From Bacteroidota bacterium (lineage in GTDB: Bacteria; Bacteroidota; Rhodothermia; Rhodothermales; UBA10348), in assembly GCA_027622005.1 (NCBI GenBank), contig JAQBZH010000003.1, forward strand, positions 41,532-105,531: a stretch of DNA of 64,000 nt, given 5' to 3'. Numbering within the stretch: the stretch's first letter is position 1; each line of letters opens with the position of its first letter. The position numbers and the translations under genes were made by a program. The notes under the pieces are model-generated. The model was not told the origin of the DNA. It did no database searches and was given only the letters and a program-made list of their open reading frames with translations. Of this stretch, positions 36,263 to 48,609 are shown piece after piece.

Positions 36263-36278
36263 ACTTGTTATTACAAGT
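36263..36278. promoter_or_regulatory. 16-bp palindrome ACTTGTTATTACAAGT, 32 nt upstream of the YeeE start; candidate operator
   Basis: Read directly from the sequence. The identical 16-mer recurs at 57407-57422, and a same-arm variant lies at 47975-47990. The sequence is certain; the confidence value refers to the operator function. Confidence 0.55.
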
Positions 36279-36309
36279 AAGTACAAGACGCCAAAACAAC
36301 TGAGTCTAT

Positions 36310-36864
36310 ATGATTGAATTCCTTTCTCAACCGTGGCCATGGTACGTCGCAGGGCCTCTAATCGGTATCGTTGTGCCGGCTTTGCTCCTTCTAGGCGGCA
36401 AACAGTTCGGTATTTCGGAAAATCTACGCCATATGTGCGCCATGATTCCGTCCAAAGTCGAGTTATTTCAGTACGACTGGAAAAGCGGGCTGTGGAATTT
36501 GACCCTTATTTTTGGAGTCGTTCTGGGTGGGTGGATTGGAGTGACTTGGCTCGAAAATCCCGATCCGGTTGCCATTTCTGAAGCCACTCGTAGCGATCTG
36601 GCAGCGCTCGGAATCTCCAATTTTAGCGGTCTTGTGCCTTCCGAACTCTTTTCTTGGGAGAGTCTAACGAGTGGGCCTGGAATCATATTAATCGTCGTGG
36701 GCGGTTTCTTGGTCGGTTTTGGTACGCGATATGCTGGCGGATGTACCTCTGGCCACGCCATTTCGGGCCTAGCCGACCTTCAGTTGCCTTCGCTCATCGC
36801 AGTCATCGGCTTCTTTGCTGGTGGATTGATTGCGACGTATTTCCTTTTACCGATTATTCTGTGA
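36310..36864 (+). CDS. YeeE/YedE-family sulfur-compound transport protein, first half-size paralogue
   Basis: A four-to-five-TM protein with the conserved Cys motif YAGGCTSGHAISG that is typical of YeeE/YedE. Confidence 0.8.
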   Translation: MIEFLSQPWPWYVAGPLIGIVVPALLLLGGKQFGISENLRHMCAMIPSKVELFQYDWKSGLWNLTLIFGVVLGGWIGVTWLENPDPVAISEATRSDLAALGISNFSGLVPSELFSWESLTSGPGIILIVVGGFLVGFGTRYAGGCTSGHAISGLADLQLPSLIAVIGFFAGGLIATYFLLPIIL

Positions 36865-36871
36865 GGACCCA

Positions 36872-37315
36872 ATGAGCGATAAGAAACCCAACAGACCAAT
36901 GTATTTGCTGCCCTATCTGCTGATAGGCATCTATTTTGGAATCGTTTTTACCAAATCGGAAGTCATTTCCTGGTTTAGAATCCAAGAAATGTTTCGATTC
37001 CAGTCTTTTCACATGTACGGGATTATCGGAAGCGCCGTCCTAGTCGCTTTGCTTTCCGTGCAGTGGATAAAACGGACAAAGAAAAGAGATCTGGATGGCG
37101 TGGAAATCGTCATCCCACCGAAGGACATGGGCACAGGTACCCGATACTGGATGGGAGGAACCATCTTTGGACTGGGCTGGGCGCTGACGGGGGCTTGTCC
37201 CGGACCCATGTTTGCTCTCGTGGGAAATGGCATTACCGTTATGGTAGTAGCGATTGTGTCCGCCGTGGCAGGAACGTTTACGTACGGTGTGCTTCGATCC
37301 AGATTACCCCATTAA
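36872..37315 (+). CDS. YeeE/YedE-family sulfur-compound transport protein, second half-size paralogue
   Basis: ATG at 36872 (MSDKKPNRPMYLL..), 8 nt after the preceding stop. Four TM segments and the motif GWALTGACPGPMF. Confidence 0.8.
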   Translation: MSDKKPNRPMYLLPYLLIGIYFGIVFTKSEVISWFRIQEMFRFQSFHMYGIIGSAVLVALLSVQWIKRTKKRDLDGVEIVIPPKDMGTGTRYWMGGTIFGLGWALTGACPGPMFALVGNGITVMVVAIVSAVAGTFTYGVLRSRLPH

Positions 37316-37329
37316 ACAACCGACTTACT

Positions 37330-38781
37330 ATGTTATTTCGACAAATTTGGGACCCCAAGCTGGCCCAGTACGCTTACTTAATCGGATGCCAGAAAACGGG
37401 CGAAGCCATCGTTATCGATCCCGAAAGAGACATTGACACGTATCTGAAGATCGCCGCAAAAGAAGGGCTAACGATAACAGCCGCCGTAGATACGCATATC
37501 CACGCCGACTACCTTTCGGGGCTTCGAGAGTTTGCTGAGCGGGGCGTCAAAGTGTATGCCTCGGACGAAGGCGACGAGGACTGGAAATATGAATGGCTAT
37601 TGGGATCGACTTACCATCATACGTTAGTAAAACATGGAAATGTCTTTTCGATTGGAAACATCAAGTTTACCGTAGTGCATTCGCCGGGCCACACGCCAGA
37701 GCACATCGCACTGCTCGTTACCGACCTCGGAGGAGGGGCAGATCGGCCGATGGGGCTACTGAGCGGAGATTTTGTCTTTGTTGGAGATCTTGGTCGCCCC
37801 GACCTCTTGGAATCAGCTGCGGGTGTGAAGGGTGTCATGGAACCCTCAGCGCGCCGCCTTTACCACTCGGTCCAAGAGTTTTTAAAACTGGACGATTTTA
37901 TCCAGGTTTGGCCGGCACACGGGGCCGGATCAGCCTGTGGGAAAGCTTTAGGTGCCATTCCACAGTCAACTGTCGGATACGAGAGAGCGTTTAACGGCGC
38001 AATCGGAGCCGCATTGCGCGGCGAAAACGAATTTGTGGAGGCCATTCTTGACGGACAACCCGAACCACCGATGTACTTCGCACGGATGAAACGCGATAAC
38101 AAGGTGGGTCCCAAAGTGTTGGGGACCATCCCCCAGCCGAAGCACCTTTTCTGGGAAGATCTCAAAGAGCTCTCGGGTAATACATCAGTGGCCGTTTTGG
38201 ACACTCGTTTGGATCGGTCCGCCTTTATGGCTCGGCACCTTCCGGGATCGCTATACGCAGGTTTTAACAAGTCATTTAATACCGCGGCGGGCTCCGTCAT
38301 CGAAGAGGGCATGCCCATCTATTTGATTATCGAAGAAGAAAATTTGGAAGAGGCCGTACGGGATCTGATTCGCGTTGGGCTCGACAACATTGTAGGATAC
38401 GCCACTCCTTCCACCCTTGAGGCCTACGCTGATCACGGACACGAAATGGCTAGCATCCGGGAAATTCATTTTAGCGACTTGAACCAAGTCGTTGCAGCCG
38501 AAGAGGATGTGGTGATTCTGGATGTGCGTAACAAATCAGAACACGATGCGGCCCATGTGCCCGGTTGCTGCAACATCGCGTATACCCGATTGTGTCTTCG
38601 AAAAGAAGATGTGCCATCTGGTACAAAGGCGGTTCACTGCGTGTCGGGGGGCCGTTCTGCAGTTTCTGCAGCACTTCTCGCACGGTTGGGGCACGACGTT
38701 ATCTACATAAATGGAGAATTCGCCGGATGGTCCGCAAATCCGGAAAACACGATTGCTAGCACAGAAGTCGCCCATGCGTAA
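37330..38781 (+). CDS. MBL-fold persulfide-dioxygenase-like enzyme fused to two rhodanese domains (CstB/PRF-like architecture)
   Basis: ATG at 37330 (MLFRQIWDPKLAQYAYLIGC..). The MBL metal motif is VDTHIHADYLSG, with HSPGHTPEH and a later FVGD. A Cys-less rhodanese-like domain follows, then a second one with the active-site loop HCVSGGRS. The ORF-track extension back to 37063 overlaps the YeeE paralogue and was discarded. Confidence 0.8.
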   Translation: MLFRQIWDPKLAQYAYLIGCQKTGEAIVIDPERDIDTYLKIAAKEGLTITAAVDTHIHADYLSGLREFAERGVKVYASDEGDEDWKYEWLLGSTYHHTLVKHGNVFSIGNIKFTVVHSPGHTPEHIALLVTDLGGGADRPMGLLSGDFVFVGDLGRPDLLESAAGVKGVMEPSARRLYHSVQEFLKLDDFIQVWPAHGAGSACGKALGAIPQSTVGYERAFNGAIGAALRGENEFVEAILDGQPEPPMYFARMKRDNKVGPKVLGTIPQPKHLFWEDLKELSGNTSVAVLDTRLDRSAFMARHLPGSLYAGFNKSFNTAAGSVIEEGMPIYLIIEEENLEEAVRDLIRVGLDNIVGYATPSTLEAYADHGHEMASIREIHFSDLNQVVAAEEDVVILDVRNKSEHDAAHVPGCCNIAYTRLCLRKEDVPSGTKAVHCVSGGRSAVSAALLARLGHDVIYINGEFAGWSANPENTIASTEVAHA

Positions 38782-38811: not shown

Positions 38812-40509
38812 ATGAAGGCGTTTCCCATCACCGTTGCCCGATGGTTTCGGCCCTATGACAAGGTAAACTTTGCCGGAGATTTGAATGCCGGCATTACCGT
38901 AGGAGTCATGCTCATCCCACAAGGCATGGCATACGCCTTGATTGCTGGCCTCCCGCCCATTTACGGGCTATATGCAGCCTTTATTCCCCTTATAGTGTAT
39001 GCACTGTTAGGGACTTCCGGACAATTGGCGGTAGGACCCGCAGCGATGGTCTCGTTGTTGGTGGCAGCAAGCGTCGGCCAAATGGCTGAACCCGGCTCAA
39101 ACGCTTATCTCGAAATTGCGATTCTACTCTCGTTTTTGGTTGGAATCATTCAATTAGTCCTTGGCCTTCTGCGATTTGGATTTGTAACCAATTTCCTGTC
39201 CCATCCTGTTCTTAGTGGATTTACGAGTGCCGCTGCGATTATGATCGGAATGGCGCAGCTCAAGCATTTGTTCGGTATTCCGATTCCTGGAGATGGTACA
39301 ATCTTTGAAACCGGTTATTACGCCGTGCAAAACGTGATGTCGGTACATCCGCTCACATTGGGAATCGGTATCGGAGGCATTTTGGTCATTTGGGGGGCCA
39401 AACGAATCTCTCCCCGGGTTCCGGGAAGTATCGTAGCTGTTGCCTTGGCCACCGTCCTTGTCTATTGGGCCGGTCTCGACGAACTAGGCGTTGCCATCGT
39501 AGGAACGGTTCCCGCCGGTTTACCAAGCCCGTCGCTATCGTTTTTGTCATTTGAAAACGCACGAGATCTGTTTCCGACAGCGCTAGCTATCGCACTGGTA
39601 GGGTTTTTGGAGTCCATTGCGATCGCAAAATCATTTGCATCCAAGAATGGGTCTACCATTGACCCCAGTGCGGAGCTCGTTGCGCTAGGTCTCGCCAACG
39701 TATTCGGTTCCTTTTTCAGGTCATTTCCGGCGGCAGGAGGTTTTGCTCGATCGGCTGTCAATCAACAATCTGGCGCTAAAACAGGCTTGGCTAGCTTAAT
39801 GAGTGCCTTTGTTGTCGTACTGACCTTGCTGTTCTTTACGCCCCTGTTCACCTTTCTTCCTAAGGCTCTTTTGGCCAGCATCGTTCTCGTAGCCGTAATT
39901 AGCTTGATAGATGTGAAGGAAGTCAAATATCTTTGGCGTGTTAATCGGACCGATCTTGCGCTATTAGTTATTACCTTCGCCTCGACGCTGATTCTGGGTG
40001 TTGAAGAGGGCATATTTACGGGTTTAGTTCTTTCCCTTTTGTCGTTTGTAAACCAAGCTTCAAGACCTCATATGGCAGTGCTGGGCAAACTGCCGAACCA
40101 ACTCGTCTTCCGTAATGTCGATCGCTTTCCAGAAGCGGAGATTATTCCCGGCGTGCTCCTTTTTCGCGTGGATGCATCTCTCTTTTTTGGAAACGTGGAT
40201 GTAGTTCGAGAGGCCATCGAAAGCGCGATAGAAGGTTCGGATGATACGCGAGTTTTGGTCCTCGACCTGTATCCTGTAAATCGTATCGACTCAACAGCGT
40301 TGAATTCACTTTCCAAATTGCACGACTGGCTCGATTTGCGTCATATTTCGTTGTTTTTGTCTGGGGTCAAGGGCCCCATTCGGGATGTGTTTTCTAAAGC
40401 AGGATTGACAGATAAACTAGGCGCGGATCACTTTTTTGATCACCTGGATGCGGCATGCCAGTCTGCCAAACGAGTCCGGGATGCCTATCTTGAAAGGGAT
40501 ACTAAATGA
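38812..40509 (+). CDS. SulP-family anion (sulfate) permease with C-terminal STAS domain, copy 1
   Basis: GDLNAGITVGVMLIPQGMAYALIAGLPPIYGLYA, about 11 TM segments and a STAS region (VLLFRVDASLFFGNVD...VLDLYPVNRIDSTAL). Confidence 0.9.
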   Translation: MKAFPITVARWFRPYDKVNFAGDLNAGITVGVMLIPQGMAYALIAGLPPIYGLYAAFIPLIVYALLGTSGQLAVGPAAMVSLLVAASVGQMAEPGSNAYLEIAILLSFLVGIIQLVLGLLRFGFVTNFLSHPVLSGFTSAAAIMIGMAQLKHLFGIPIPGDGTIFETGYYAVQNVMSVHPLTLGIGIGGILVIWGAKRISPRVPGSIVAVALATVLVYWAGLDELGVAIVGTVPAGLPSPSLSFLSFENARDLFPTALAIALVGFLESIAIAKSFASKNGSTIDPSAELVALGLANVFGSFFRSFPAAGGFARSAVNQQSGAKTGLASLMSAFVVVLTLLFFTPLFTFLPKALLASIVLVAVISLIDVKEVKYLWRVNRTDLALLVITFASTLILGVEEGIFTGLVLSLLSFVNQASRPHMAVLGKLPNQLVFRNVDRFPEAEIIPGVLLFRVDASLFFGNVDVVREAIESAIEGSDDTRVLVLDLYPVNRIDSTALNSLSKLHDWLDLRHISLFLSGVKGPIRDVFSKAGLTDKLGADHFFDHLDAACQSAKRVRDAYLERDTK

Positions 40510-40539: not shown

Positions 40540-42273
40540 ATGATTGCTGGAGACACGGCTAGTTCATTCTTATTGACCTGGCGCCATGGCTACAATCGGT
40601 CGCTTTTTAAGGGTGATTTATTGGCTGGGTTAACGGTTGGAGTGGTGCTAATTCCACAAGGAATGGCTTACGCATTGTTGGCTGGAGTTCCCCCTGTTTA
40701 TGGCTTGTATGCGTCGCTGGTACCGCTGATTGTTTACGTCCTGATAGGGACCTCTCGCCAGTTGGCCGTTGGGGTAGTAGCCATCGATTCCCTAGTGGTC
40801 GCAGCCGGGGTAGGCGCAATAGCACCAATCGGCTCAGATTCCTATCTGGGATACGTTATGCTTTTGGCCCTTATGGTGGGGGCCATTCAGCTGATTTTGG
40901 GCTTTTTGCGGTTTGGTTTTATGGTTAGTCTCTTGTCAAAGCCGGTGATTACCGGATTTACGGCGGCGGTAGCCATTATCATCGGAATGAGCCAATTGCA
41001 GCATTTAATGGGCTTATCGCTTGGTAGCAACTTGAATGTCTTCATTTTGCTATCGGAGGCAGCGGCCCGTCTCCAGGAAATACAACCGGCGAGCCTGATG
41101 ATTGGTGTGGGCGGAATAGTCCTGTTGATAGCGATCATGAAATGGCTGCCGCGGGTGCCGGGCCCTCTGGTTATCGTTTTGCTTTCTGCCGTATTGGTCT
41201 ATTTCGCAGACCTCGAATCCAAAGGAGTAGCTATTGTTGGAAATATTCCATCAGGACTACCAACCCCTTCATTCCCCTTGTTTTCGTATGAGGCTATTCG
41301 AGAGCTATTTCCCACGGCCGTTACGCTTTCACTGATCCAGTTCATGGGAATTATATCGTTGGGGAAAATGTTTGGGGTGAAACACGGGTACCGGGTGAAT
41401 CCAAATCGAGAACTGATGGCCCTTGGTGCCATGAATTTTGCTGGATCGGTGTTTCGCAGTATTCCGGTTTCCGTGAGCTATTCGAGAAGTGCTGTAAATG
41501 ATCTGTCCGGAGCAAAATCACCGCTGGCAAACGGCATTTCTGCCCTGCTCGTTCTGTGTACGTTGCTTTTTCTTACGCCCCTCTTTTACTACCTGCCGAT
41601 TCCCATATTCGCTTCAATCATCATGGTTGCGGCCTTTGGCCTGGTCAATTTTACTGAAGTACGATTTCTGCTCCGCACCAAGGCTGTCGATGGGATTATC
41701 GCACTTTCTACCTTTTTTGCGACCCTTGTGCTCGGTATCGAACAAGGCATGTTAGTGGGGATCGGCCTTTCGTTCGTCGCAATCATTTACCGAATTGGAA
41801 GACCTAACGTTGCCATTTTAGGCCATTTACCCAATTCAAGATCATTCCGCGACTTGGATAAACGCGGCACAGCGCATCAATTTGAGGGAATTGTGCTTAT
41901 CCGTATTGATGCATCGCTCTCGTTTGCCAACGCTGACCTTCTTCGCGATGTCATTGAGGAGCATACAGCAGATAAGAAGGTGCGAGCCGTAATTCTGGAT
42001 GCTTCTAGCGTGAATGATCTGGACACTACGGCTTTGTCGGCTTTAGCCGAAGTCAACCAGGTGCTTCGAAGGGCGGGCACCTTGTTTTATTTTGCCGGAC
42101 TCCGTCAAAAATCGCTCGATATGCTCGACTCTTCGGGGCTCATGGCAGAAGTCGGCCCTTCGCATTTTTGTTTAAGCTTGGATCAGGCAGTACTGGAAGT
42201 GCTCTCATTGTGGGGGCGGGAGAGCGAATATTTGGATCGATTAGTCGATCAGGCGTCGGCCGACTCAGCTTGA
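40540..42273 (+). CDS. SulP-family anion (sulfate) permease with C-terminal STAS domain, copy 2
   Basis: It is a paralogue of the preceding gene (GDLLAGLTVGVVLIPQGMAYALLAGVPPVYGLYA; STAS region IVLIRIDASLSFANAD...ILDASSVNDLDTTAL). Confidence 0.9.
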   Translation: MIAGDTASSFLLTWRHGYNRSLFKGDLLAGLTVGVVLIPQGMAYALLAGVPPVYGLYASLVPLIVYVLIGTSRQLAVGVVAIDSLVVAAGVGAIAPIGSDSYLGYVMLLALMVGAIQLILGFLRFGFMVSLLSKPVITGFTAAVAIIIGMSQLQHLMGLSLGSNLNVFILLSEAAARLQEIQPASLMIGVGGIVLLIAIMKWLPRVPGPLVIVLLSAVLVYFADLESKGVAIVGNIPSGLPTPSFPLFSYEAIRELFPTAVTLSLIQFMGIISLGKMFGVKHGYRVNPNRELMALGAMNFAGSVFRSIPVSVSYSRSAVNDLSGAKSPLANGISALLVLCTLLFLTPLFYYLPIPIFASIIMVAAFGLVNFTEVRFLLRTKAVDGIIALSTFFATLVLGIEQGMLVGIGLSFVAIIYRIGRPNVAILGHLPNSRSFRDLDKRGTAHQFEGIVLIRIDASLSFANADLLRDVIEEHTADKKVRAVILDASSVNDLDTTALSALAEVNQVLRRAGTLFYFAGLRQKSLDMLDSSGLMAEVGPSHFCLSLDQAVLEVLSLWGRESEYLDRLVDQASADSA

Positions 42274-43163
42274 CGCAGCTGTCGGACTACTTCGCTCGTA
42301 ATGTTCAGTTTTTTCGACCATTCGGCCGCCCAGTACGATGCGCCTTTTGATGCCCAACGATCCCACGTAGCCCGGTGCGTAGTAATTTCAGAATCCAAAA
42401 AGTCACAAACCGGGCCTAAGGCGTCATACTGCGCCGCCGATCGCAGCAAGCCCTCAATAGAACGCGATCGCGAACCAAATCCGATGGGAATTCGGTGCCG
42501 CCGGGCCTCGACGGCAAGGCTCGATTTAGTGACAAACAGGCCACTCGCTGCATGACTTGCTAGATATTCGGCAATAGCGGCAAGGTTGGTTCGTTCGTCT
42601 TCGAGGTGAAGGCCTGATTCGGGCAGCGACGGAAAGGGGGTCTGCGGTGGTAGTGGCCCACCCACCGCTTTTGGCGCGTCCAAAATGTAATCCACGACCT
42701 CTTCCAACAACAAGGCAATATGGGTCATTTCCGGAAGATCGAACGTTCCGAGTCGATCCAAAAAAGGAGGCATCCAAATCAATAACTCTTGTTTCAAATA
42801 GTCCCCAGCTTCCTGGATTCGACCATTTTCAATCAAAAAAGCTACAAATCGAAGAGAAGAGGAGAGGTGATCGGCTAATACGGACGAGGTGTCGGGTTCA
42901 AATCCTGCGGTCCACATCTTAGTCCAAACGCGCTCCGAGACGACGCTCCCCATTACGGAACCCGGCTCCAGAAAAACGGAGGCCGCGGGCATTAGTTCGT
43001 GACACAGTACCTGATAATGTGCTGCCGCGAAGTCGTCGGAAGGCTCGAAGGAAACGGTGGAACCCGATTCTTGAATCGATTTCAATTCGATCAAAGAGCG
43101 CGGAGGTCGCTCAATCAGGTCTGCTAGAACGATGAGTCTAATAGCTATGTCTTTTTCTGTCAC
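42249..43163 (-). CDS. TorD/DmsD/NarJ-like redox-enzyme maturation chaperone with an unrecognised C-terminal extension of about 120 aa
   Basis: The N-terminal ~180 aa show the TorD-family pattern (AAHYQVLCHELMPAASVFLE...FEPDTSSVLADHLSSSLRFVAFLIENG). It is the last gene of the Mo-enzyme operon. The C-terminal part matches nothing I recognise. Confidence 0.55.
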   Translation of the reverse strand: MTEKDIAIRLIVLADLIERPPRSLIELKSIQESGSTVSFEPSDDFAAAHYQVLCHELMPAASVFLEPGSVMGSVVSERVWTKMWTAGFEPDTSSVLADHLSSSLRFVAFLIENGRIQEAGDYLKQELLIWMPPFLDRLGTFDLPEMTHIALLLEEVVDYILDAPKAVGGPLPPQTPFPSLPESGLHLEDERTNLAAIAEYLASHAASGLFVTKSSLAVEARRHRIPIGFGSRSRSIEGLLRSAAQYDALGPVCDFLDSEITTHRATWDRWASKGASYWAAEWSKKLNITSEVVRQLRQAESADA

Positions 43164-43211: not shown

Positions 43212-46199
43212 CTATCGTCCGAAAGGTTTTTCGGGCAACTTGTACGCTTCTTTTACTGGCTTTAACGGCCGCTTGAGCCAATCTGGGCGCCGCGTACCGT
43301 CTGGCGAATGGTCAACGGCGCTGCGAGATAATTTTACCCATTCGTTATAGTTTTCCATAGACGCATTCGTGTCGACATAGACGTCTCCGTGCTTATCCCC
43401 TGGGGGCGCTTTCTCGACTTGATAAGCTTTTTGAAGCCAACAATGGTGCCCGGAAACCGGGTCCGGCTGGACCGCGTGAGTCAAGTTCTGGTGGACGCCT
43501 ACATCTTCCCACCAAATGCGCGAGGTATCTGGGTCAAACGATTTCCACGGCCCTGCGCCGTGATTCACCCGAAGCTTGTTTCCCTCGTCCCGGCTCTCGG
43601 TGATGGATACAAAATTTGATGCCCCGCGGCTCACTCCTTCTTCCTCTTTCAGTCTCCATCGGCCCAGGTGATGGCTCATGGCAATAACGCCCGGCTTAAT
43701 CCCTTCAGTAATCCATATTTTATCCACAAAATAGCCGATTCGGGTTGTGACTCGGATCAATTCACCCGTTTTGACACCAATTCGGGCGGCATCGACGGGG
43801 TGCATCCATACCGGATTTTTGTGACTCAACTCGTAGAGCCACTTCGCGTTGGCGCTTCGTGTGTGGATCAGCGTTGGTAGCCTAAAATTAGGTAGGAGTA
43901 ACATTTCCCCTTTCGCGCGGTCGATATTATCCGGATGGACATGGCTCTTGAGCGTCCAGGGCAGGGTGTATTCTTTCTCAGGCCAACCCCAGTCCTTCAT
44001 GGTGGAGCTGAAAAACTCCATCTTTCGACTTGGGGTAGTGAATCCGACTTTGACCTCGCCATCAATCATTACCCCGACAACCGACCCGTTTTTCAGCACG
44101 CGATCGTGCTTGTCCGTCGTTGTGCCCGCGGCATCAATCTTCTTTTCGTAGGGCACATAGTGGTCCTTCGTAATCTCAAACGCGGCGTACTTGCGCATAT
44201 ACTCGAGGGGGGTAATCCCTTCTTTCGCCGCCGCGGCAGGAAGTCCCGGCACACTGTTTTCAAAAATCCACCGGTAATATTCTTCAACGGTAATGACCTC
44301 ACCTTCGCGATAAGGACTATTGAAGTGTTTGCGGATACCAAGCGATCCGTCAGGGTCCATCGCCACCGATAGGTCAATCCAGAATTCGTTTTCCTCCCAG
44401 ACCTCGCCGGGATTGGCCTGCCAGGTAAAATCAACTTTCTTACCGAGCCGTTCCATGGCCACCCGACGAACGGGCTGTCTGAACGCAATCCATTGCCCCG
44501 CATGGGTTTCCTGGCTCATAAGGTCGTGCCGCTCGTTGGCGTGGCCCATCGGCAGGACATAGTCAGCAAACCATGCGGACTCGTTCCAGGTAGGCGTCAG
44601 CGCCACATGGCACTTCATTTTTTCCTCGTCTTGAAGCGCTCGCATCCACATAAACCCGTCCGGATTGATCCAGAGAGGGTTATAGACCCGGGTGAAATAC
44701 ACATCGATGTCACCGCGCCCTTCTTCCAGAAAGTGAGGCAAGAGGAAGCTCATTTCATAGTGCGCCAGGGGCCATTCGTGCGGCAGTTGGAGCTCATTCC
44801 AGGCATTGAACGGGGGCGGTTCTTCAAACGGTTTCGGGACAAATTTATTCCAACTGTTTCCCGACGTACCGCCCTCGGTGCCAATACTTCCGGTCAACAC
44901 ATTCAGAAATAACAGGCATCTCGCAACTTGCCAGCCTCCTAAATTGCCCACGGAAGCGCTTCGCCAGGTGTGCGTTGCGAGGCGGCCCTGGCAATTAGCA
45001 ATGGACTCGGCGGCTTCCCTGATTCGTTCGATAGGTACTTGAGACTCTTCTGCTGCCCGCTCAAACGTAAACTCGGCGTATAAGTCCTTAAGTAGCCGGT
45101 CAAAAGTCGCATAATCAGATCGATCGGCGTCTAGGTCAAACGATGACATCGAAAGTCTTTCCTTTAGTTTGTCCCAAAGCCCTTCACCGGGCAAGTCGAT
45201 CTTTACGCCGTCGTAGTTCTGGGCCTTAATTAGCTCCAGAGCATCCCTCCAATTCACCCATTTTCGGACAAATTCGCGGTCGTACAGGTCGTTTTGTATC
45301 AGATGGTTGGCAATGGCCAACAAAACGGTCTGTTCGGATCCGGGCCACGTAGGAAGCCAGGTGTCCGATTTGGAGGCCGTGTTCGAAAGGCGTGGATCAA
45401 ACGTGATTAGTTTGGCTCCGTTCTGTTTCGCCTCCATGATCCGCTGCGCGTGTGGATTGAAGTAGTGCCCCGTTTCGAGGTGGCTGGAAATGAGCAGAAT
45501 GACATTCGCTTTGGCGTGGTCGGGGCTCGGGCGGTCAAAGCCGGACCACAAATAATAGCCCGCCCTCGCCCCTGCGGAGCAAATGTTGGTGTGCGAATTG
45601 TGCCCGTCTACGCCCCATGCCTCGATCACCCGATTAGTAAAGCCGTCTTCGCCGGGACGCCCGACGTGGTACATAATACCATCCAGCCGCTTTTTGCGCG
45701 AAGCGCTCATTTTTTCGGCTATTTCCGAAACGGCTTCGTCCCAGGAAATCCTCTTCCACTTGCCCTCTCCACGTTTACCAACGCGTTTCAGCGGGTAAAG
45801 AATGCGTTCTGGATCGTAGACCTGGTTGATAGTGGCAGGGCCTTTCGCACAGTTCCTTCCTCGGCTTCCCGGGTGTTTGGGATTGCCTTCAAATTTTTTG
45901 ATCTCCAGCGTTTCCCGGTCCACGTAGGCCAGTAGACCGCAGGCACTTTCGCAATTGAAGCAGACGGTCGGGACCAACGTGTAATGACGGGCGACTTTCT
46001 TGGGCCAGGCTTTCCCATCCCACTCCACCCAGTCATTCCACAATTCGACGGGAGGATACTGACTCATCCGGCCGTCGGGATGGGTCACCGACGTCATTTC
46101 AATTTTTTGTGGCTTTTTATCCGAAATCGCAAATCGAGGTAAACCAAACGGCTGTCCGCCCACAGTAGCTTCTGGAATATCGGTGTTTTTCGTTGGCAT
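43212..46199 (-). CDS. Molybdopterin (bis-MGD) oxidoreductase catalytic subunit without a Tat signal; SoeA-like candidate
   Basis: FS0 cluster motif CFNCESACGLL-x-C (C-x2-C-x3-C-x29-C), a candidate Mo-ligand Cys in HTNICSAGARAG, and molybdopterin-binding domains throughout its 995 aa. The N-terminus MPTKNTDIPEATVGG... has no RR motif. Only 48 nt separate it from the upstream stop. Confidence 0.9.
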   Translation of the reverse strand: MPTKNTDIPEATVGGQPFGLPRFAISDKKPQKIEMTSVTHPDGRMSQYPPVELWNDWVEWDGKAWPKKVARHYTLVPTVCFNCESACGLLAYVDRETLEIKKFEGNPKHPGSRGRNCAKGPATINQVYDPERILYPLKRVGKRGEGKWKRISWDEAVSEIAEKMSASRKKRLDGIMYHVGRPGEDGFTNRVIEAWGVDGHNSHTNICSAGARAGYYLWSGFDRPSPDHAKANVILLISSHLETGHYFNPHAQRIMEAKQNGAKLITFDPRLSNTASKSDTWLPTWPGSEQTVLLAIANHLIQNDLYDREFVRKWVNWRDALELIKAQNYDGVKIDLPGEGLWDKLKERLSMSSFDLDADRSDYATFDRLLKDLYAEFTFERAAEESQVPIERIREAAESIANCQGRLATHTWRSASVGNLGGWQVARCLLFLNVLTGSIGTEGGTSGNSWNKFVPKPFEEPPPFNAWNELQLPHEWPLAHYEMSFLLPHFLEEGRGDIDVYFTRVYNPLWINPDGFMWMRALQDEEKMKCHVALTPTWNESAWFADYVLPMGHANERHDLMSQETHAGQWIAFRQPVRRVAMERLGKKVDFTWQANPGEVWEENEFWIDLSVAMDPDGSLGIRKHFNSPYREGEVITVEEYYRWIFENSVPGLPAAAAKEGITPLEYMRKYAAFEITKDHYVPYEKKIDAAGTTTDKHDRVLKNGSVVGVMIDGEVKVGFTTPSRKMEFFSSTMKDWGWPEKEYTLPWTLKSHVHPDNIDRAKGEMLLLPNFRLPTLIHTRSANAKWLYELSHKNPVWMHPVDAARIGVKTGELIRVTTRIGYFVDKIWITEGIKPGVIAMSHHLGRWRLKEEEGVSRGASNFVSITESRDEGNKLRVNHGAGPWKSFDPDTSRIWWEDVGVHQNLTHAVQPDPVSGHHCWLQKAYQVEKAPPGDKHGDVYVDTNASMENYNEWVKLSRSAVDHSPDGTRRPDWLKRPLKPVKEAYKLPEKPFGR

Positions 46200-46247: not shown

Positions 46248-47897
46248 CTAGCTGTTGGGTATCTCTTGAGGAGCGTTTACAAATGCTCTTTCGTACAAAA
46301 AGAGGCCTATCAGGGCAAGAATTCCTGCCACCAAACCGGGCACGGCGGTAAACATCAGCGCTAATGGCACCACATGGCCCATCACCGTACTTCCGATCCA
46401 AAACGAGCGGGCATAGCGGCCTTTTACGATCATGTGAGCAGCTCTTGTAGCCGATTCCGAGGCGTGAGACATACCGAACTCGCCGAGAAAAGTGATCAAT
46501 AGGTCAATTATCAGGGATCCGATAAACGTGGCGTGTCCTGTAGCTACGAGTCCTTCTCCCAGGTCCATAACAGACCCCATCATCAGCAACATGGCGCTAC
46601 CTGCGACCGCCGATTGAACGATGAGGTGAATAGGGAGAAGAGGGCTTTGCCAAAGATCCCGACCTTCGGCTTGCCCAAACAAATAAGCAGTATATATCGC
46701 TGTACCAAGGCCTAGAGGCCACCCAATTAACAGCAGGGGACTTCGAAAAGAAGCCATACTCGATTCAGATATCCAGCCCATCCAAACGGAAAACTCTCCG
46801 AGGCTCCAGAGTCCAACCAAACTGGTGAATCCGATCAATATAAAGGCGCCTCGAACCAACCAGCTCCGCCACTGTGGGCGGGTTATGATCCGCAAGAAGC
46901 GCTCAGGGCGCTCTAAATCGAATACTAATAGAGCCGTGGTGGCCGCTAAAAACGCCAGTGTTACGACGGATGTGACTAAAAACACCGGATTGTTGGCCTC
47001 GACCAATCCAAACAAAAACGCAGTCCCTAGAATCAAAAACAGTCCGGCCGCGATCCCTTTCGTGACGAGATAAGCCGGAACGGGCCAGTGCCAGGGCACT
47101 TTGTGCTGGGCATTCCAAACGACCTGAGTCATTTGTTCGGCCATTCGGCCTTCGCCGATCTGAATAATCCCTCCTTTGGGGTCTCCTTGAGCCTCGGGTC
47201 GCCTCAGAGACGAGCCGGATGCCGATTTTTTGCCATAATTCGTTAGATCGGCAGGTGGCGCCCCGCGGTGCCCGTCTCCTTCGTGAAGCGAAAGGACGTC
47301 TGCCCAAGCGAAAGAATCAGGTGTTCGTTCAACGGCCGTGGGGTGCATAGCTACATCGTCGCCTCCGATGTAATACAATTTCGGAGCCGTCCCCTGCTCG
47401 GGTTTTCTAACCGTAACCTTATTGCGCGCAACGGCTTGGGCGATTTCCGTAGTAGGATCGTCCAGATCCCCAGCAAGGATGGCATGCTCCGGACAAACCA
47501 CCACACAAGCGGGCTCGAGGCCTAAATCGACTTTATGCGCGCAATAGTGGCATTTTGCGGCCGTCCCTGAGTCTGGGTCGATGTATATAGCATCGTACGG
47601 GCACGCCTGCATACACGCCTTACACCCGATACAGACATCCGGATCAAATTCTACGATTCCGTCGGTGCGCTGGTACATGGCTGTCACCGGACAAATGCGA
47701 ACACAGGGTGGATTGGCGCAGTGATTACACCGGGTAACCTGAAAATTCCGGGTCACATTGGGATACTGACCCGTCTCTACACTCTTAACCCAAGTTCGCT
47801 GTACGCCTAACGGGACTTCGTTTTCGCTTTTACAAGCTGTTGAACAGGCGTGACACCCTATGCAGGTGTCATTGTTAATTACAAAGCCGTAATTCAT
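46248..47897 (-). CDS. Fusion protein: four-cluster 4Fe-4S ferredoxin subunit (DmsB/PsrB/SoeB-like) joined to an NrfD/PsrC-type eight-TM quinone-interacting membrane subunit
   Basis: The N-terminal ~200 aa carry four Cys groups (CIGCHACSTAC, CNHCANPPC, CIGCKACMQAC, CHYCAHK..C..VCP). From about residue 270 I count eight hydrophobic helices, which is NrfD-like. There is no signal peptide. Confidence 0.85.
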   Translation of the reverse strand: MNYGFVINNDTCIGCHACSTACKSENEVPLGVQRTWVKSVETGQYPNVTRNFQVTRCNHCANPPCVRICPVTAMYQRTDGIVEFDPDVCIGCKACMQACPYDAIYIDPDSGTAAKCHYCAHKVDLGLEPACVVVCPEHAILAGDLDDPTTEIAQAVARNKVTVRKPEQGTAPKLYYIGGDDVAMHPTAVERTPDSFAWADVLSLHEGDGHRGAPPADLTNYGKKSASGSSLRRPEAQGDPKGGIIQIGEGRMAEQMTQVVWNAQHKVPWHWPVPAYLVTKGIAAGLFLILGTAFLFGLVEANNPVFLVTSVVTLAFLAATTALLVFDLERPERFLRIITRPQWRSWLVRGAFILIGFTSLVGLWSLGEFSVWMGWISESSMASFRSPLLLIGWPLGLGTAIYTAYLFGQAEGRDLWQSPLLPIHLIVQSAVAGSAMLLMMGSVMDLGEGLVATGHATFIGSLIIDLLITFLGEFGMSHASESATRAAHMIVKGRYARSFWIGSTVMGHVVPLALMFTAVPGLVAGILALIGLFLYERAFVNAPQEIPNS

Positions 47898-47913
47898 AGC
47901 TGTTCAGCCCAAA

Positions 47914-47960
47914 ATGTAGCAAAACCGTGATGTAGCAAAACCGTCATTTGGCAAAAATGT
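47914..47960. repeat. Three 15-nt direct repeats at 16-nt period, 17-63 nt upstream of the Fe-S/NrfD start codon
   Basis: ATGTAGCAAAACCGT is at 47914-47928 and 47930-47944 (both perfect), with a degenerate third copy ATTTGGCAAAAATGT at 47946-47960. On the coding strand this reads ACGGTTTTGCTACAT x2. Confidence 0.9.
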
Positions 47961-47972
47961 CGCCGAAATAGT

Positions 47973-47992
47973 CAACTTGTAATATCAAGTTG
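47973..47992. promoter_or_regulatory. Palindrome CAACTTG-TAATAT-CAAGTTG between mobA and the Mo-enzyme operon; candidate operator
   Basis: The 7-bp arms are perfect. The core ACTTG-N6-CAAGT (47975-47990) shares its arms with the 16-mers at 36263 and 57407. The sequence is certain; the function is inferred. Confidence 0.5.
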
Positions 47993-48012
47993 CATCGTCA
48001 AAAGAGCAACCT

Positions 48013-48609
48013 CTAATCGCCTCTGGAAGTAGGTAAATCGCTCTTAAAATTTACATTGATGAGCCGGCCATCACCGACATCCACTTTTGAATTAGAATGA
48101 GATGAAATAAATCCCATCACAGATCGATTCCCCTCGTTTAAATAGGTGCTTAGCGGCGATTGCAGGCTTCGATGCCAAATGGAGCATAGCGGTTGATCGC
48201 GGCCGGTCTGTGTGTCCCGAGCATAGGTCAGTGGATAGTGGAATTGATTTACTATTTCCTTTAGATCTCGCATCTCGACGAGAGGAAGATCTACCGCCAA
48301 CACGAACAGCCTTTCGGCCGTTGTGGCTTCAAATGCGGCCTCAATGCCTGCCAAAGGACCTGCATCCATCCTTTTATCGGGGATTTGAAGGGCGTTCACT
48401 TCATATGTTCGACCCAGCGGCCCGACGGCTATCACGATGTCATCGACCACTGTGGCCAGTACGCGGTGAGCTCGGCGAATGAGAGGTTCACCATCGATCA
48501 AAATCAACGCCTTATCCGAGCCATACCGATGGCTCTGACCACCGCACAAAATCACCCCACATAAAGAGTCCGTTTTGCCTTTCCCCGCACCTATTCGGTC
48601 GTTTTTCAT
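48013..48609 (-). CDS. mobA: Molybdenum cofactor guanylyltransferase MobA
   Basis: GVILCGGQSHRYGSDKALILIDGEPL, DAGPLAGIEAA and LAVDLPLV match the MobA nucleotide-binding motifs. Confidence 0.8.
   Translation of the reverse strand: MKNDRIGAGKGKTDSLCGVILCGGQSHRYGSDKALILIDGEPLIRRAHRVLATVVDDIVIAVGPLGRTYEVNALQIPDKRMDAGPLAGIEAAFEATTAERLFVLAVDLPLVEMRDLKEIVNQFHYPLTYARDTQTGRDQPLCSIWHRSLQSPLSTYLNEGNRSVMGFISSHSNSKVDVGDGRLINVNFKSDLPTSRGD

What the first reader, a model, noticed from the sequence alone, without database searches (positions are those of the whole stretch)
36263..48609. A 12-kb neighbourhood that reads as a persulfide/thiosulfate to sulfite to sulfate route
On the plus strand lie two half-size YeeE/YedE paralogues (Cys motifs GGCTSGH and GACPGP), an MBL-fold persulfide-dioxygenase-like enzyme fused to two rhodanese domains (active loop HCVSGGRS), and two tandem SulP-STAS permeases. 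They converge on a minus-strand operon encoding an Fe-S/NrfD fusion, a Tat-less bis-MGD molybdoenzyme and a TorD-like chaperone, with mobA immediately upstream and moeA about 10 kb away. YeeE/YedE proteins are known to move thiosulfate or other sulfur species. PDO-rhodanese fusions are known to oxidise persulfide sulfur to sulfite or thiosulfate. The only well-described cytoplasm-facing membrane Mo-enzyme acting on sulfite is SoeABC of Allochromatium vinosum and Ruegeria pomeroyi. My inference is that sulfite made in the cytoplasm by the PDO fusion is oxidised by this Mo complex with electrons passed to quinone, and that sulfate leaves through the SulP pair. The window contains no SQR, Sox or SorAB/SUOX gene, so the entry point of reduced sulfur is unknown. 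I do not recall this combination being described as a unit in FCB-group heterotrophs.
Basis: partly seen in the sequence, partly recalled or inferred. Interest (0 to 1): 0.72.

Follow-up and report, generated by a model that had tools for sequence, protein, structure and literature searches.

The report
Co-regulated sulfur-to-sulfate oxidation gene set
A Rhodothermales bacterium carries one co-regulated gene set that most likely imports reactive sulfur and oxidises it to sulfite and then sulfate, using an inward-facing molybdenum enzyme that occurs in hundreds of species but has never been characterised and is not the known SoeABC enzyme.

Summary
The two convergent operons belong together. 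A 16-bp palindrome (ACTTG-N6-CAAGT) sits upstream of the yedE operon, the Fe-S/NrfD gene and a GntR/UTRA regulator gene (3 exact sites, 0.01 expected), and relatives conserve it. The Mo genes also lie next to persulfide-dioxygenase, YedE, SulP, TusA or SQR genes in Rhodothermota, Chloroflexota, Myxococcota and Actinomycetota.

The Mo subunit is not a SoeA orthologue. It is 26-29% identical to true SoeA over the N-terminal part only. With Tat-exported Sre-like relatives it forms a separate clade with 100% bootstrap support, next to Psr-like enzymes.

The complex faces the cytoplasm. None of 79 family members has a Tat motif, and loop charges on the membrane domain are inverted relative to Tat-type relatives.

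In Anaerolineae the same genes follow a type II sHdr/LbpA cluster, a second cytoplasmic sulfite source. Close Rhodothermales relatives carry a type II SQR inside the Mo operon.

Best reading (about 0.55): a non-orthologous functional analogue of SoeABC, a sulfite:quinone oxidoreductase. It may be the family of green-sulfur-bacterial PSRLC3; I could not test that. No member has been assayed.

The parts
36263..36278 (.). Operator-like palindrome O1 (ACTTGTTATTACAAGT), 32 nt upstream of yedE1
   Evidence: There are 3 exact ACTTG-N6-CAAGT sites in 64 kb against 0.01 expected. The site is conserved upstream of yedE1 in L003, L010 and L012.
36310..36864 (+). YedE1-type half-size YeeE/YedE membrane protein (Cys motif GGCTSGH)
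   Evidence: PF04143, 5.8e-15. Split YedE1E2 pairs import zero-valent sulfur for PDO (PMC10812762).
36872..37315 (+). YedE2-type half (DUF6691/Sulf_transp; Cys motif GACPGP). The alternative start is 36899.
   Evidence: PF20398, 1.6e-9, and PF04143, 5.3e-9.
37330..38781 (+). CstB-type persulfide dioxygenase-rhodanese fusion: MBL domain, degenerate middle domain and C-terminal rhodanese with loop HCVSGGRS
   Evidence: Full-length match to PDB 3tp9 (4.6e-118) and 3r2u (1.6e-95). Pfam Lactamase_B plus Rhodanese.
38812..40509 (+). SulP-STAS anion permease 1
   Evidence: PF00916 1.5e-113, PF01740, and TIGR00815 502 bits
40540..42273 (+). SulP-STAS anion permease 2. Its 3' end overlaps the 3' end of the convergent TorD-like gene by 25 nt.
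   Evidence: PF00916 1.3e-102 and TIGR00815 441 bits
42249..43163 (-). NarJ/TorD/DmsD-like maturation chaperone (304 aa)
   Evidence: PF02613, 5.9e-5, and DmsD, 3e-4. It is syntenic downstream of the Mo gene in about 35 related loci.
43212..46199 (-). Catalytic bis-MGD subunit (995 aa): Tat-less, FS0 motif CxxCxxxC...C, predicted Mo ligand Cys207 in HTNICSAGAR
   Evidence: Pfam domains. No NCBIfam cut-off is reached (best PhsA, 212 against 694 bits). Clade placement is, the ligand column, and the absence of a Tat motif.
46248..47897 (-). Fusion of a four-cluster ferredoxin domain (residues about 1-190) with an 8-helix NrfD-type quinone-site membrane domain (about 260-549)
   Evidence: PF13247 and PF03916. 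The fusion is present in 62 of 82 related loci. The positive-inside bias places the Fe-S domain in the cytoplasm.
47975..47990 (.). Operator-like palindrome O2 (ACTTGATATTACAAGT on the minus strand), 78 nt upstream of the Fe-S/NrfD start codon
   Evidence: It is conserved at the same place in L002, L003, L010, L011, L012 and L014.
48013..48609 (-). mobA (molybdenum cofactor guanylyltransferase), the first gene of the minus-strand cluster
   Evidence: PF12804, 3.6e-29, and TIGR02665, 108 bits, which is below its cut-off
57407..57498 (.). Two operator-like palindromes upstream of the regulator gene: O3 at 57407-57422 (exact) and O4 at 57483-57498 (1 arm mismatch)
   Evidence: All 4 sites in the window with at most 1 arm mismatch fall in these three promoter regions.
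57563..58372 (+). GntR/HutC-subfamily regulator (HTH plus UTRA effector domain), the candidate repressor of the regulon
   Evidence: PF00392 and PF07702. It matches NagR/YvoA and DasR structures at 1e-33 to 1e-27. Orthologues of 57-62% identity lie directly upstream of Fe-S/NrfD in L011 and L014.
58332..59627 (-). moeA (molybdopterin molybdenumtransferase), convergent with the regulator gene
   Evidence: PF03453, PF00994 and PF03454

Best explanation
The region is one regulon for cytoplasmic oxidation of sulfane sulfur, and possibly thiosulfate, to sulfate.

Proposed steps:
1. The split YedE1/YedE2 pair brings zero-valent sulfur (polysulfide or S8; thiosulfate is possible) across the membrane onto a low-molecular-weight thiol. 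This is inferred from experiments on homologues.
2. The CstB-type enzyme oxidises the persulfide with O2 to sulfite in its MBL domain. Its rhodanese domain shuttles sulfane sulfur between persulfide and thiosulfate. This is inferred from homology.
3. The Mo complex sits on the cytoplasmic face of the membrane. This orientation is shown by sequence. The complex consists of the Tat-less bis-MGD subunit and the Fe-S/NrfD fusion, matured by MobA, MoeA and the TorD-like chaperone. It oxidises sulfite to sulfate and passes two electrons through FS0 and four [4Fe-4S] clusters to menaquinone in the inverted NrfD domain. The substrate is inferred from gene context only.
4. The SulP pair moves the anion, most simply exporting sulfate. 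This is inferred, and the direction is unknown.
5. A HutC-type GntR regulator binds the 16-bp palindromes in front of both operons and of its own gene. This is inferred from comparative genomics, and the effector is unknown.

The Mo complex is a functional analogue of SoeABC, not an orthologue. It belongs to a separate, uncharacterised clade that also holds Tat-exported Sre/Psr-like enzymes. The direction of change between the two forms is not resolved. The cytoplasmic form differs in lacking the Tat signal, having the B and C subunits fused, and having its membrane orientation inverted.
For: (1) One regulon.
- ACTTG-N6-CAAGT occurs exactly 3 times in 64 kb against 0.01 expected. The sites lie upstream of yedE1, Fe-S/NrfD and the GntR gene, and a fourth site with 1 mismatch lies upstream of GntR.
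- The palindrome is conserved upstream of Fe-S/NrfD in 6 other Rhodothermales loci, upstream of sqr in 2 and upstream of yedE1 in 3.
- GntR orthologues abut the Mo operon in L011 and L014.

(2) Conserved association.
- Among loci with at least 5 kb on both flanks and Mo identity of 64% or more, 27 of 33 have a sulfur-trafficking neighbour and 21 of 33 have a PDO-like MBL gene.
- Ardenticatenaceae (L004) has a single co-directional operon: TusA, FeS/NrfD, Mo, MBL, Rhd, YeeE, DUF6691, TorD-like, SulP-Rhd.
- Myxococcota (L005), at only 39% BLASTP identity (43% by phmmer), has a sigma54 activator followed by PDO-Rhd, YeeE, DUF6691, FeS/NrfD and Mo.
- R. jostii RHA1 pRHL3 has two MBL genes, a BigR-like ArsR regulator, DsrE2-like, TusA, FeS/NrfD and Mo.

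(3) A second, independent cytoplasmic sulfite source.
- In Anaerolineae the Mo genes directly follow sHdrB3-like, EtfBA, EMO-like, two LbpA genes and sLpl.
- This matches the type II sHdr cluster, whose product is sulfite (PMC11094781).

(4) SQR inside the operon.
- A type II SQR lies between the Mo and TorD-like genes in close relatives (1e-111 to human SQOR).

(5) Cytoplasmic orientation.
- 0 of 79 family members have a Tat motif, against 14 of 14 Tat controls.
- In 56 fusions, K+R averages 10.8 on the Fe-S-side loops and 1.1 on the opposite loops. In 3 Tat-type relatives the counts are 3-6 against 5-8.

(6) Literature.
- GSB PSRLC3, reported as two genes, has been inferred to be a sulfite oxidase (PMC5473276, PMC6338057, PMC9324843).
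- The known sulfite oxidisers were rare or absent in a sediment metagenome survey in which type III PDOs were found mainly in Gemmatimonadota and Bacteroidota (PMC12345210).
Against: - No member of the clade has been assayed.
- The catalytic subunit is not in the SoeA clade. Its nearest relatives are Tat-type enzymes in Sre-like gene contexts, and next nearest are Psr-like proteins, which handle sulfane sulfur rather than sulfite.
- CstB-type fusions in S. aureus release thiosulfate, not free sulfite (my knowledge of the published enzymology).
- Only 13 of the 33 loci with Mo identity below 64% show a sulfur neighbour.
- In T. roseum the Mo gene (trd_A0628) is expressed but unchanged (1.01-fold) under the condition that induces the sHdr cluster 45-fold.
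- One PDO-linked relative (P0122) lacks the predicted Cys ligand.
- A SulP-rhodanese fusion in L004 hints at thiosulfate import rather than sulfate export.
Confidence: 0.55

Rival explanations
1. The Mo complex is a cytoplasm-facing member of the Psr/Phs/Sre kind that acts on thiosulfate or polysulfide, not on sulfite. For example, it could cleave the thiosulfate made by the CstB-type enzyme or imported by YedE/SulP into sulfite plus sulfide. SQR and PDO would then re-oxidise the sulfide, and sulfite or sulfate would leave through SulP.
For: - The best NCBIfam and PDB matches are PhsA (212 bits) and T. thermophilus PsrA (2.5e-41).
- The clade contains Tat-type enzymes in Sre-like gene contexts and is sister to Psr-like proteins.
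- It has an NrfD-type anchor, not a DmsC-type one.
- CstB enzymes produce thiosulfate, and YeeE-family proteins carry thiosulfate (established knowledge; PMC10812762).
- L004 has a SulP-rhodanese fusion.
Against: - True SoeA scores just as high against the PhsA model (227 bits), so that similarity does not discriminate between the two readings.
- Thiosulfate reduction by menaquinol is endergonic. In Salmonella it depends on a periplasm-facing, pmf-driven enzyme (established knowledge). An inverted enzyme in an aerobe has no obvious driving force.
- Polysulfide reduction would undo the SQR encoded in the same operon.
- Association with two different sulfite-producing systems, PDO and type II sHdr, points to their common product.
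Confidence: 0.2
2. The Mo complex is an O2-independent sulfane-sulfur dehydrogenase. It would oxidise persulfide sulfur delivered on TusA or DsrE directly to sulfite or sulfate with quinone as the acceptor, working in parallel with the O2-dependent PDO.
For: - TusA lies immediately upstream of Fe-S/NrfD in Chloroflexota loci (6 loci).
- DsrE2-like and TusA lie immediately upstream in R. jostii.
- The nearest relatives are sulfane-sulfur enzymes.
Against: - No bis-MGD enzyme is known to carry out a six-electron oxidation of sulfane sulfur.
- TusA and DsrE also accompany the Dsr and sHdr systems, which need a separate sulfite oxidiser (PMC11094781).
- PDO would be redundant in most loci.
Confidence: 0.1
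3. The complex is a formate:quinone oxidoreductase. This follows the tentative 'FqoABC' label that a survey of NrfD-like subunits gave to an uncharacterised complex found in Chlorobi, Actinobacteria, Chloroflexi, Crenarchaeota and Deltaproteobacteria.
For: - The phylum distribution of 'FqoC' (PMC8076601) resembles that of this family.
- Some database records call members 'formate dehydrogenase'.
Against: - The residue after the predicted Mo-ligand Cys is Ser, not the His of the Sec/Cys-His pair seen in FdnG.
- The Fdh-alpha model scores 149 bits against a cut-off of 666.
- No formate-related neighbour appeared in 86 loci.
- I could not show that this family is the 'Fqo' group. A residue-fingerprint test had no power.
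Confidence: 0.03
4. The complex is an orthologue of SoeABC, and merely has fused B and C subunits.
For: It shares three features with SoeABC: it is Tat-less and cytoplasm-facing, the catalytic subunit is about 1000 aa with a Cys ligand, and it lies next to sulfite-producing enzymes.
Against: - Identity to SoeA is 26-29%, and only over the N-terminal part (residues about 72-444), at 120-170 bits.
- SoeA forms a separate clade with 100% bootstrap support.
- SoeC is a DmsC/YnfH-family protein, not an NrfD-family one.
- JGI names the Azospirillum-type proteins SoeA and none of the window family.
Confidence: 0.03

Closest known systems
SoeABC sulfite:quinone oxidoreductase (Allochromatium vinosum, Ruegeria pomeroyi, Aquifex aeolicus)
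   Same: Both are Tat-less, cytoplasm-facing complex iron-sulfur molybdoenzymes with a catalytic subunit of about 1000 aa and a Cys ligand. Both pass electrons through a four-cluster ferredoxin to a quinone site in an inverted membrane subunit. Both are encoded next to cytoplasmic sulfite producers.
   Different: The catalytic subunit belongs to a different clade (26-29% identity, partial alignment). The anchor is NrfD-type rather than DmsC-type, and the B and C subunits are fused. The taxonomic range is Rhodothermota, Chloroflexota, Myxococcota, Actinomycetota, Acidobacteriota and haloarchaea rather than Proteobacteria and Aquificae (PMC8076601).
PSRLC3 of green sulfur bacteria (polysulfide-reductase-like complex 3; inferred sulfite oxidase, never assayed)
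   Same: PSRLC3 is reported as two genes (PMC5473276). It has been proposed to oxidise sulfite (PMC6338057, PMC9324843). It also occurs in the FCB group.
   Different: I obtained no Chlorobi sequence, so orthology is untested. In green sulfur bacteria the partner is Dsr, not PDO or sHdr, and no link to YedE, SulP or a GntR regulator has been described in the papers I could search.
PsrABC / PhsABC / SreABCDE (periplasmic polysulfide, thiosulfate and sulfur reductases)
   Same: These are the closest solved structure (PsrA, 2vpw) and the closest named model (PhsA). They share the NrfD-type anchor, the Cys ligand and the Fe-S, NrfD, Mo, TorD gene order seen in the Tat-type clade members.
   Different: The window enzyme has no Tat signal, an inverted membrane domain and fused B and C subunits. 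Its scores are far below the family cut-offs (212 against 694 bits), and its gene context is oxidative.
cst operon of Staphylococcus aureus (CstR, TauE, CstA, CstB, SQR) and the BigR-blh-yedE1E2 operons of Proteobacteria
   Same: All have a CstB-type PDO-rhodanese fusion, split YedE1E2 next to a PDO (PMC10812762), an SQR in relatives and an anion exporter gene. Relatives carry persulfide-sensor-type regulators (BigR-like, CsoR-like, sigma54).
   Different: Those operons stop at thiosulfate or sulfite and export it through TauE. Here a membrane Mo enzyme is added, SulP replaces TauE, and the regulator is a HutC-type GntR protein.
Mitochondrial sulfide oxidation unit (SQOR, ETHE1, TST, SUOX)
   Same: The chemistry follows the same order: a type II SQR (1e-111 to human SQOR), a persulfide dioxygenase, a rhodanese and a molybdenum sulfite oxidiser.
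   Different: The sulfite step would use a bis-MGD membrane enzyme that reduces quinone, not a SUOX-fold enzyme that reduces cytochrome c.

Membership tests
SoeABC | The catalytic subunit falls in the SoeA clade (KEGG K21307-type proteins) | tested here: not met
   Against Azospirillum SoeA and four proteins that JGI names SoeA, identity is 26-29% over the N-terminal part only (residues about 72-444), at 120-170 bits. The two groups form separate clades with 100% bootstrap support.
SoeABC | The Mo and Fe-S subunits lack export signals and face the cytoplasm | tested here: met
   0 of 79 family members have a Tat motif, against 14 of 14 Tat controls. K+R on the Fe-S-side loops averages 10.8 against 1.1 on the opposite loops in 56 fusions, and the bias is reversed in Tat-type relatives.
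SoeABC | Three separate subunits with a DmsC/YnfH-family membrane anchor | tested here: not met
   The window has one Fe-S/NrfD fusion protein (PF13247 plus PF03916). Azospirillum soeC is annotated as DmsC/YnfH family.
SoeABC | Sulfite-dependent quinone reduction | not testable with these tools
   This needs enzymology or genetics.
Psr/Phs/Sre periplasmic sulfur-compound reductases | A Tat signal on the catalytic subunit, with the active site in the periplasm | tested here: not met
Psr/Phs/Sre periplasmic sulfur-compound reductases | A score above the curated PhsA model cut-off | tested here: not met
   212.6 bits against a cut-off of 694. TtrA scores 117 against 1750 and ArrA 112 against 1600.
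Psr/Phs/Sre periplasmic sulfur-compound reductases | An NrfD-type anchor and a Cys ligand to Mo | tested here: met
   PF03916, 8.6e-27. Cys207 aligns with the ligand column of the PhsA, NapA and FdnG references. The ligand role is inferred from the alignment.
PSRLC3 (green sulfur bacteria) | A two-gene architecture, as reported for Prosthecochloris | tested here: met
   The window has a two-gene core, and the B-C fusion is present in 62 of 82 related loci. PSRLC3 is described as '2 genes' in PMC5473276. That PSRLC3 is Tat-less with fused B and C subunits is my recollection and was not verified.
PSRLC3 (green sulfur bacteria) | Sequence orthology to the Chlorobi proteins | not tested
   No Chlorobi sequence could be retrieved. 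Chlorobi are absent from the 80 best genome loci (56% identity or more) and from the plasmid hits.
Formate dehydrogenase / 'FqoABC' | A Sec/Cys-His catalytic pair and a score above the Fdh model cut-off | tested here: not met
   The motif is ICSAG, with Ser after the Cys. Fdh-alpha scores 148.6 bits against a cut-off of 666.
CstB-type persulfide dioxygenase-sulfurtransferase | An MBL domain with the HxHxD motif, a middle degenerate domain and a C-terminal rhodanese with a catalytic Cys, alignable over the full length | tested here: met
   Residues 1-468 align to 3tp9 (4.6e-118) and residues 1-462 to 3r2u (1.6e-95). THIHAD and HCVSGGRS are both present. Activity was not tested.
YedE1E2 split sulfur transporter | Two adjacent half-size YeeE/YedE genes, each with a conserved Cys, next to a PDO gene | tested here: met
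   The functional definition comes from PMC10812762. The transported species was not tested here.
GntR/HutC regulators | An N-terminal GntR winged helix plus a C-terminal UTRA domain, with a palindromic operator of about 16 bp | tested here: met
   PF00392 and PF07702. Matches NagR and DasR structures. Binding was not tested.

The most novel reading that the evidence does not exclude
This clade is an independently evolved cytoplasmic sulfite:quinone oxidoreductase. It is related to periplasmic Sre/Psr-like enzymes and differs from them in lacking the Tat signal, having the B and C subunits fused, and having its membrane orientation inverted. On this reading it is the missing sulfite-oxidising step for PDO-based and type II sHdr-based sulfur oxidation in hundreds of non-proteobacterial species: Rhodothermota, Chloroflexota, Myxococcota, Actinomycetota, Acidobacteriota, haloarchaea and possibly the PSRLC3 of green sulfur bacteria. 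KO-based annotation does not label the listed homologues of the window protein as SoeA. In Rhodothermales the whole route would be one regulon under a HutC-type GntR regulator.
Probability: 0.5. Interest if true: 0.75.

Novelty: new variant of a known kind. Interest (0 to 1): 0.62.

Why it matters
Sulfide and persulfide detoxification by SQR and PDO is widespread in heterotrophs. What happens to the toxic sulfite is unclear outside Proteobacteria. A sediment metagenome survey reported SoeABC, SorAB and SUOX as rare or absent while PDO genes were widespread (PMC12345210). The same question applies to type II sHdr systems in Chloroflexota and Actinomycetota.

If this clade oxidises sulfite, it closes those pathways. 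It adds a quinone-level energy gain to them and gives a new marker gene for sulfur-cycle surveys. It would also be a clear case of convergent recruitment of a molybdoenzyme, with a documented flip in membrane orientation.

Several cultured organisms carry it, one of them genetically tractable: R. jostii RHA1 (on pRHL3), Thermomicrobium roseum, Enhygromyxa salina and Rhodocaloribacter litoris. The question can therefore be tested directly.

Tried and rejected
(1) Retrieving reference SoeA by name. The papers hold no sequences. I solved this indirectly through an Azospirillum plasmid carrying soeABC next to xsc, whose relatives JGI names SoeA.

(2) Retrieving Chlorobi PSRLC3 (CT049x). The representative search and cluster look-up gave unnamed metagenome proteins. 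The single genome scan kept only the 80 closest loci, with no Chlorobi among them. Gregersen 2011 and Dahl 2013 are not held in the library.

(3) A residue-fingerprint test of the NrfD domain against the CT0494, SoeC, TtrC, MccD and NrfD residue lists printed in PMC8076601. No target exceeded shuffled controls. Azospirillum SoeC against Aquifex SoeC also failed, so the test has no power.

(4) T. roseum transcriptome supplement. The Mo gene trd_A0628 is expressed but unchanged (1.01-fold). The Fe-S/NrfD gene trd_A0629 rises 1.56-fold and the regulator trd_A0630 rises 2.27-fold in stationary phase. No sulfur condition was tested, so this is uninformative on substrate.

(5) The Azoarcus KH32C (30%) and Sulfurovum (38%) plasmid hits. 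The Azoarcus protein is Tat-type and Psr/Sre-like; the Sulfurovum locus has the same Sre-like gene context, but its N-terminus was not checked. I used the Azoarcus protein and both NrfD subunits only as outgroup and Tat-type comparison sequences.

(6) Phaeobacter plasmid hits. These are an unrelated 1142-aa oxidoreductase without partner subunits.

(7) Structure prediction and fold search were not run. They would confirm the DMSO-reductase fold but not the substrate.

Full report
**Observation.**
The window is a Rhodothermales-type metagenome contig (ENA ERZ23495043, scaffold_795). Named homologues of the Mo subunit come from Rhodothermales, 'Bacteroidetes Order II' and Chloroflexota.

- Two half-size YeeE/YedE proteins: 36310-36864 and 36872-37315.
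- A 483-aa MBL-rhodanese fusion: 37330-38781.
- Two SulP-STAS permeases: 38812-40509 and 40540-42273.
- On the other strand: mobA (48013-48609), an Fe-S/NrfD fusion (46248-47897), a 995-aa bis-MGD subunit (43212-46199) and a weak NarJ/TorD-family protein (42249-43163).
- moeA at 58332-59627.

The quoted Cys motifs are in the translations. The remaining genes of the window are housekeeping or polysaccharide-related. None is an SQR, Sox or SUOX gene.

**The plus-strand half is a known kind of module.**
The fusion protein aligns over its full length with PDB 3tp9 (4.6e-118) and 3r2u (1.6e-95). I recognise 3r2u as S. aureus CstB, so this is a CstB-type persulfide dioxygenase-sulfurtransferase. Pfam sees only the C-terminal rhodanese domain. 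The middle domain is the degenerate one of that architecture. Split YedE1/YedE2 pairs next to PDO genes have been shown to speed up import of zero-valent sulfur for PDO, and this depends on the conserved cysteines (PMC10812762).

**The Mo enzyme is not SoeABC.**
No NCBIfam model reaches its cut-off. The best is PhsA at 212 bits against a cut-off of 694. The best solved structure is Thermus PsrA.

I found a true SoeABC reference on an Azospirillum brasilense plasmid. It encodes a 1000-aa Mo subunit, a 251-aa ferredoxin and a DmsC/YnfH-type anchor next to xsc. JGI names homologues of its Mo subunit (70-72% identical) 'sulfite dehydrogenase (quinone) subunit SoeA'. JGI gives none of the listed homologues of the window protein that name.

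BLASTP of the window protein gave the following.

| Group | Identity | Extent and score |
|---|---|---|
| Tat-less relatives: T. roseum, R. jostii RHA1, Natrinema, a Myxococcota MAG | 39-57% | full length |
| Tat-type relatives | 30-38% | near full length |
| Tat-type Psr-like proteins | 28-30% | full length, 276-405 bits |
| SoeA | 26-29% | N-terminal part only, 120-170 bits |

A neighbour-joining tree (717 columns, 200 bootstraps) supports four points.

- The window family and its Tat-type relatives form one clade with 100% support.
- The Psr-like group is sister to that clade with 65% support.
- SoeA is a separate clade with 100% support.
- The position of the SoeA clade is unresolved.

The tree is distance-based and has few curated references, so only the well-supported splits should be trusted.

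The Tat-type clade members have Sre-like contexts: Fe-S, NrfD, Mo, TorD and a polyferredoxin. The predicted Mo ligand is Cys207 in HTNICSAGAR. The next residue is Ser, not the His of formate dehydrogenases.

**Orientation.**
A twin-arginine regex that detects all 14 Tat-type controls finds none in 79 full-length family members. I aligned the NrfD domains and counted K+R in the loops.

| Proteins | K+R, loops on the Fe-S-domain side | K+R, opposite loops |
|---|---|---|
| 56 Tat-less fusions (mean) | 10.8 | 1.1 |
| 3 Tat-type relatives (range) | 3-6 | 5-8 |

The smallest difference among the 56 fusions is 4. By the positive-inside rule, the membrane domain is inverted and the Fe-S and Mo modules face the cytoplasm. 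This agrees with what has been proposed for SoeC (PMC8076601).

**The two halves are linked: comparative evidence.**
The 80 best loci (56-82% identity) come from Rhodothermales, Chloroflexota, Myxococcota, Acidobacteriota, Planctomycetota, Saprospiraceae and Nitrospinota. Plasmid records add Thermomicrobium, Rhodococcus and haloarchaea.

I made an unbiased census of ORF clusters within 7 kb of the Mo gene.

- The most frequent neighbour after Fe-S/NrfD is a PDO-like MBL protein, in 42 of 86 loci.
- SulP follows in 17 loci.
- Smaller numbers of loci have TusA, YedE halves, or SQR with DUF1641.
- Among loci with at least 5 kb on both flanks and Mo identity of 64% or more, 27 of 33 have a sulfur neighbour.
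- The association is weaker below 64% identity: 13 of 33 loci.

Several individual loci are striking.

- Ardenticatenaceae has a single operon: TusA, FeS/NrfD, Mo, MBL, Rhd, YeeE, DUF6691, TorD-like and SulP-Rhd.
- A Myxococcota MAG at only 39% BLASTP identity (43% by phmmer) has a sigma54 activator, PDO-Rhd, YeeE, DUF6691, FeS/NrfD and Mo.
- R. jostii RHA1 pRHL3 has two MBL genes, a BigR-like ArsR regulator, DsrE2-like, TusA, FeS/NrfD, Mo and Mrp/NBP35.
- T. roseum has a CsoR-family regulator directly upstream.
- Close Rhodothermales relatives keep the window's layout and add a type II SQR (1e-111 to human SQOR) between the Mo and TorD-like genes.
- In Anaerolineae the Mo genes directly follow sHdrB3-like, EtfB, EtfA, EMO-like, two LbpA genes and sLpl. 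This is the 3' part of a type II sHdr cluster, a system that oxidises sulfane sulfur to sulfite in the cytoplasm (PMC11094781).

Two unrelated sulfite-producing systems therefore share this neighbour.

**The two halves are linked: evidence inside the window.**
I compared the promoter regions and found a 16-bp palindrome, ACTTG-N6-CAAGT.

- It occurs exactly three times in the 64 kb, against 0.01 expected: at 36263-36278 (32 nt upstream of yedE1), at 47975-47990 (78 nt upstream of Fe-S/NrfD) and at 57407-57422.
- A fourth site with one mismatch lies at 57483-57498.
- The last two sites lie upstream of a GntR/HutC-type regulator gene (57563-58372; GntR plus UTRA domains, similar to NagR and DasR).
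- In relatives the palindrome is conserved upstream of Fe-S/NrfD (L002, L003, L010, L011, L012, L014), upstream of sqr (L003, L009) and upstream of yedE1 (L003, L010, L012).
- Orthologues of the regulator (57-62% identity) sit directly upstream of the Mo operon in L011 and L014.
- The consensus is ACTTGWNATNACAAGT.

I infer a single regulon under this regulator. Binding and the effector are untested.

**Mechanism.**
The shown and inferred steps are as follows.

- Shown by sequence: the gene content, the cytoplasmic orientation, the separate clade, the conserved association and the shared operator.
- Inferred from homologues: sulfur import by YedE1E2, and persulfide oxidation by the CstB-type enzyme.
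- Inferred from context only: sulfite as the Mo enzyme's substrate, menaquinone as the acceptor, and sulfate export by SulP.

Several points weigh against the sulfite reading.

- The sulfane-sulfur chemistry of the nearest relatives points away from sulfite.
- S. aureus CstB releases thiosulfate rather than free sulfite (my knowledge of the published enzymology).
- L004 has a SulP-rhodanese fusion, which hints at thiosulfate import.
- The T. roseum Mo gene is not induced under the condition that induces sHdr 45-fold.
- Many loci in the more distant part of the family lack sulfur neighbours.

I put sulfite:quinone oxidoreductase at about 0.55. A cytoplasmic thiosulfate- or polysulfide-acting enzyme gets 0.2. 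A sulfane-sulfur dehydrogenase fed by TusA/DsrE gets 0.1. Formate oxidation and true SoeA orthology get about 0.03 each.

**Comparison with what is known, and novelty.**
The plus-strand half is an ordinary cst/BigR-type module. The Mo complex works like SoeABC but fails two of SoeABC's sequence-level defining features.

The closest described entity is PSRLC3 of green sulfur bacteria. It is reported as two genes and has been inferred, never shown, to oxidise sulfite (PMC5473276, PMC6338057, PMC9324843). I could not obtain a Chlorobi sequence, so that membership is open.

A survey of NrfD-like subunits tentatively called a complex with a similar phylum distribution 'formate:quinone oxidoreductase' (PMC8076601). 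The active-site motif and the gene contexts found here argue against that label for this family.

In the library I could search, I found no description of three things: the pairing of this clade with PDO/YedE/SulP, its adjacency to type II sHdr, or the GntR regulon.

I rate it a new variant of a known kind, with interest 0.62. It is not a new principle. It is a widespread, unassayed enzyme family with a specific, testable function and cultured carriers, one of them genetically tractable.

Noticed in passing
window 42249-42273: The 3' ends of sulP2 (plus strand) and the TorD-like gene (minus strand) overlap by 25 nt. The two convergent operons therefore have no intergenic space for terminators.
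   Followed up: no
L005 5604-8480 (protein P0122, Myxococcota UBA796): This PDO-linked, Tat-less relative (39% BLASTP identity, 43% by phmmer) lacks the conserved HTNICS motif. It has NDPHADTPATR at the predicted Mo-ligand position, so it may use another ligand or be catalytically different.
   Followed up: partly
L088 10802-11971 and L092 10993-12153: In Rhodococcus jostii pRHL3 and in Natrinema, an Mrp/NBP35-family ATPase gene directly follows the Mo gene (overlapping it by a few nt), in the position the TorD-like gene occupies elsewhere. It may be an alternative maturation factor.
   Followed up: no
L026-L034, e.g. L034 12992-14050: In seven Anaerolineae loci a DUF2270 plus DUF2179 membrane protein directly follows the Mo gene. 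Its function is unknown, and it may be a transporter that replaces SulP.
   Followed up: no
L004 16586-18739: The SulP-STAS permease of the Ardenticatenaceae operon carries a C-terminal rhodanese domain. This suggests the transported anion could be thiosulfate rather than sulfate.
   Followed up: no
L002 8100-9787 (Rhodocaloribacter litoris): The public gene call splits the Fe-S (212 aa) and NrfD (346 aa) genes. My ORF scan found a long ORF (8276-9787) that clusters with the fusions. Either the split is real or it is a frameshift or gene-calling artefact.
   Followed up: no
window 27199-30105: A 968-aa protein combines DUF7133, a cytochrome c domain and a 3-keto-disaccharide hydrolase domain. 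It is adjacent to fucosidase, aldose epimerase and an SSF transporter, and may be a sugar-oxidising cytochrome fusion.
   Followed up: no
window 24652-25446: A eukaryotic-type (alpha) carbonic anhydrase gene lies among the sugar-utilisation genes.
   Followed up: no
L101 1-4220 (Sulfolobaceae MAG): The Tat-type 1277-aa clade member of Sulfolobaceae lies next to two LplA-like ligases and two radical-SAM genes (lipoate assembly genes of the sHdr type). The link between this clade and lipoate-dependent sulfur oxidation therefore extends to archaea.
   Followed up: no
window 49547-49927: A 126-aa ORF with no Pfam match lies between the NUDIX gene and the M14 peptidase gene. A gene is called at the same position in the relative L003.
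   Followed up: no
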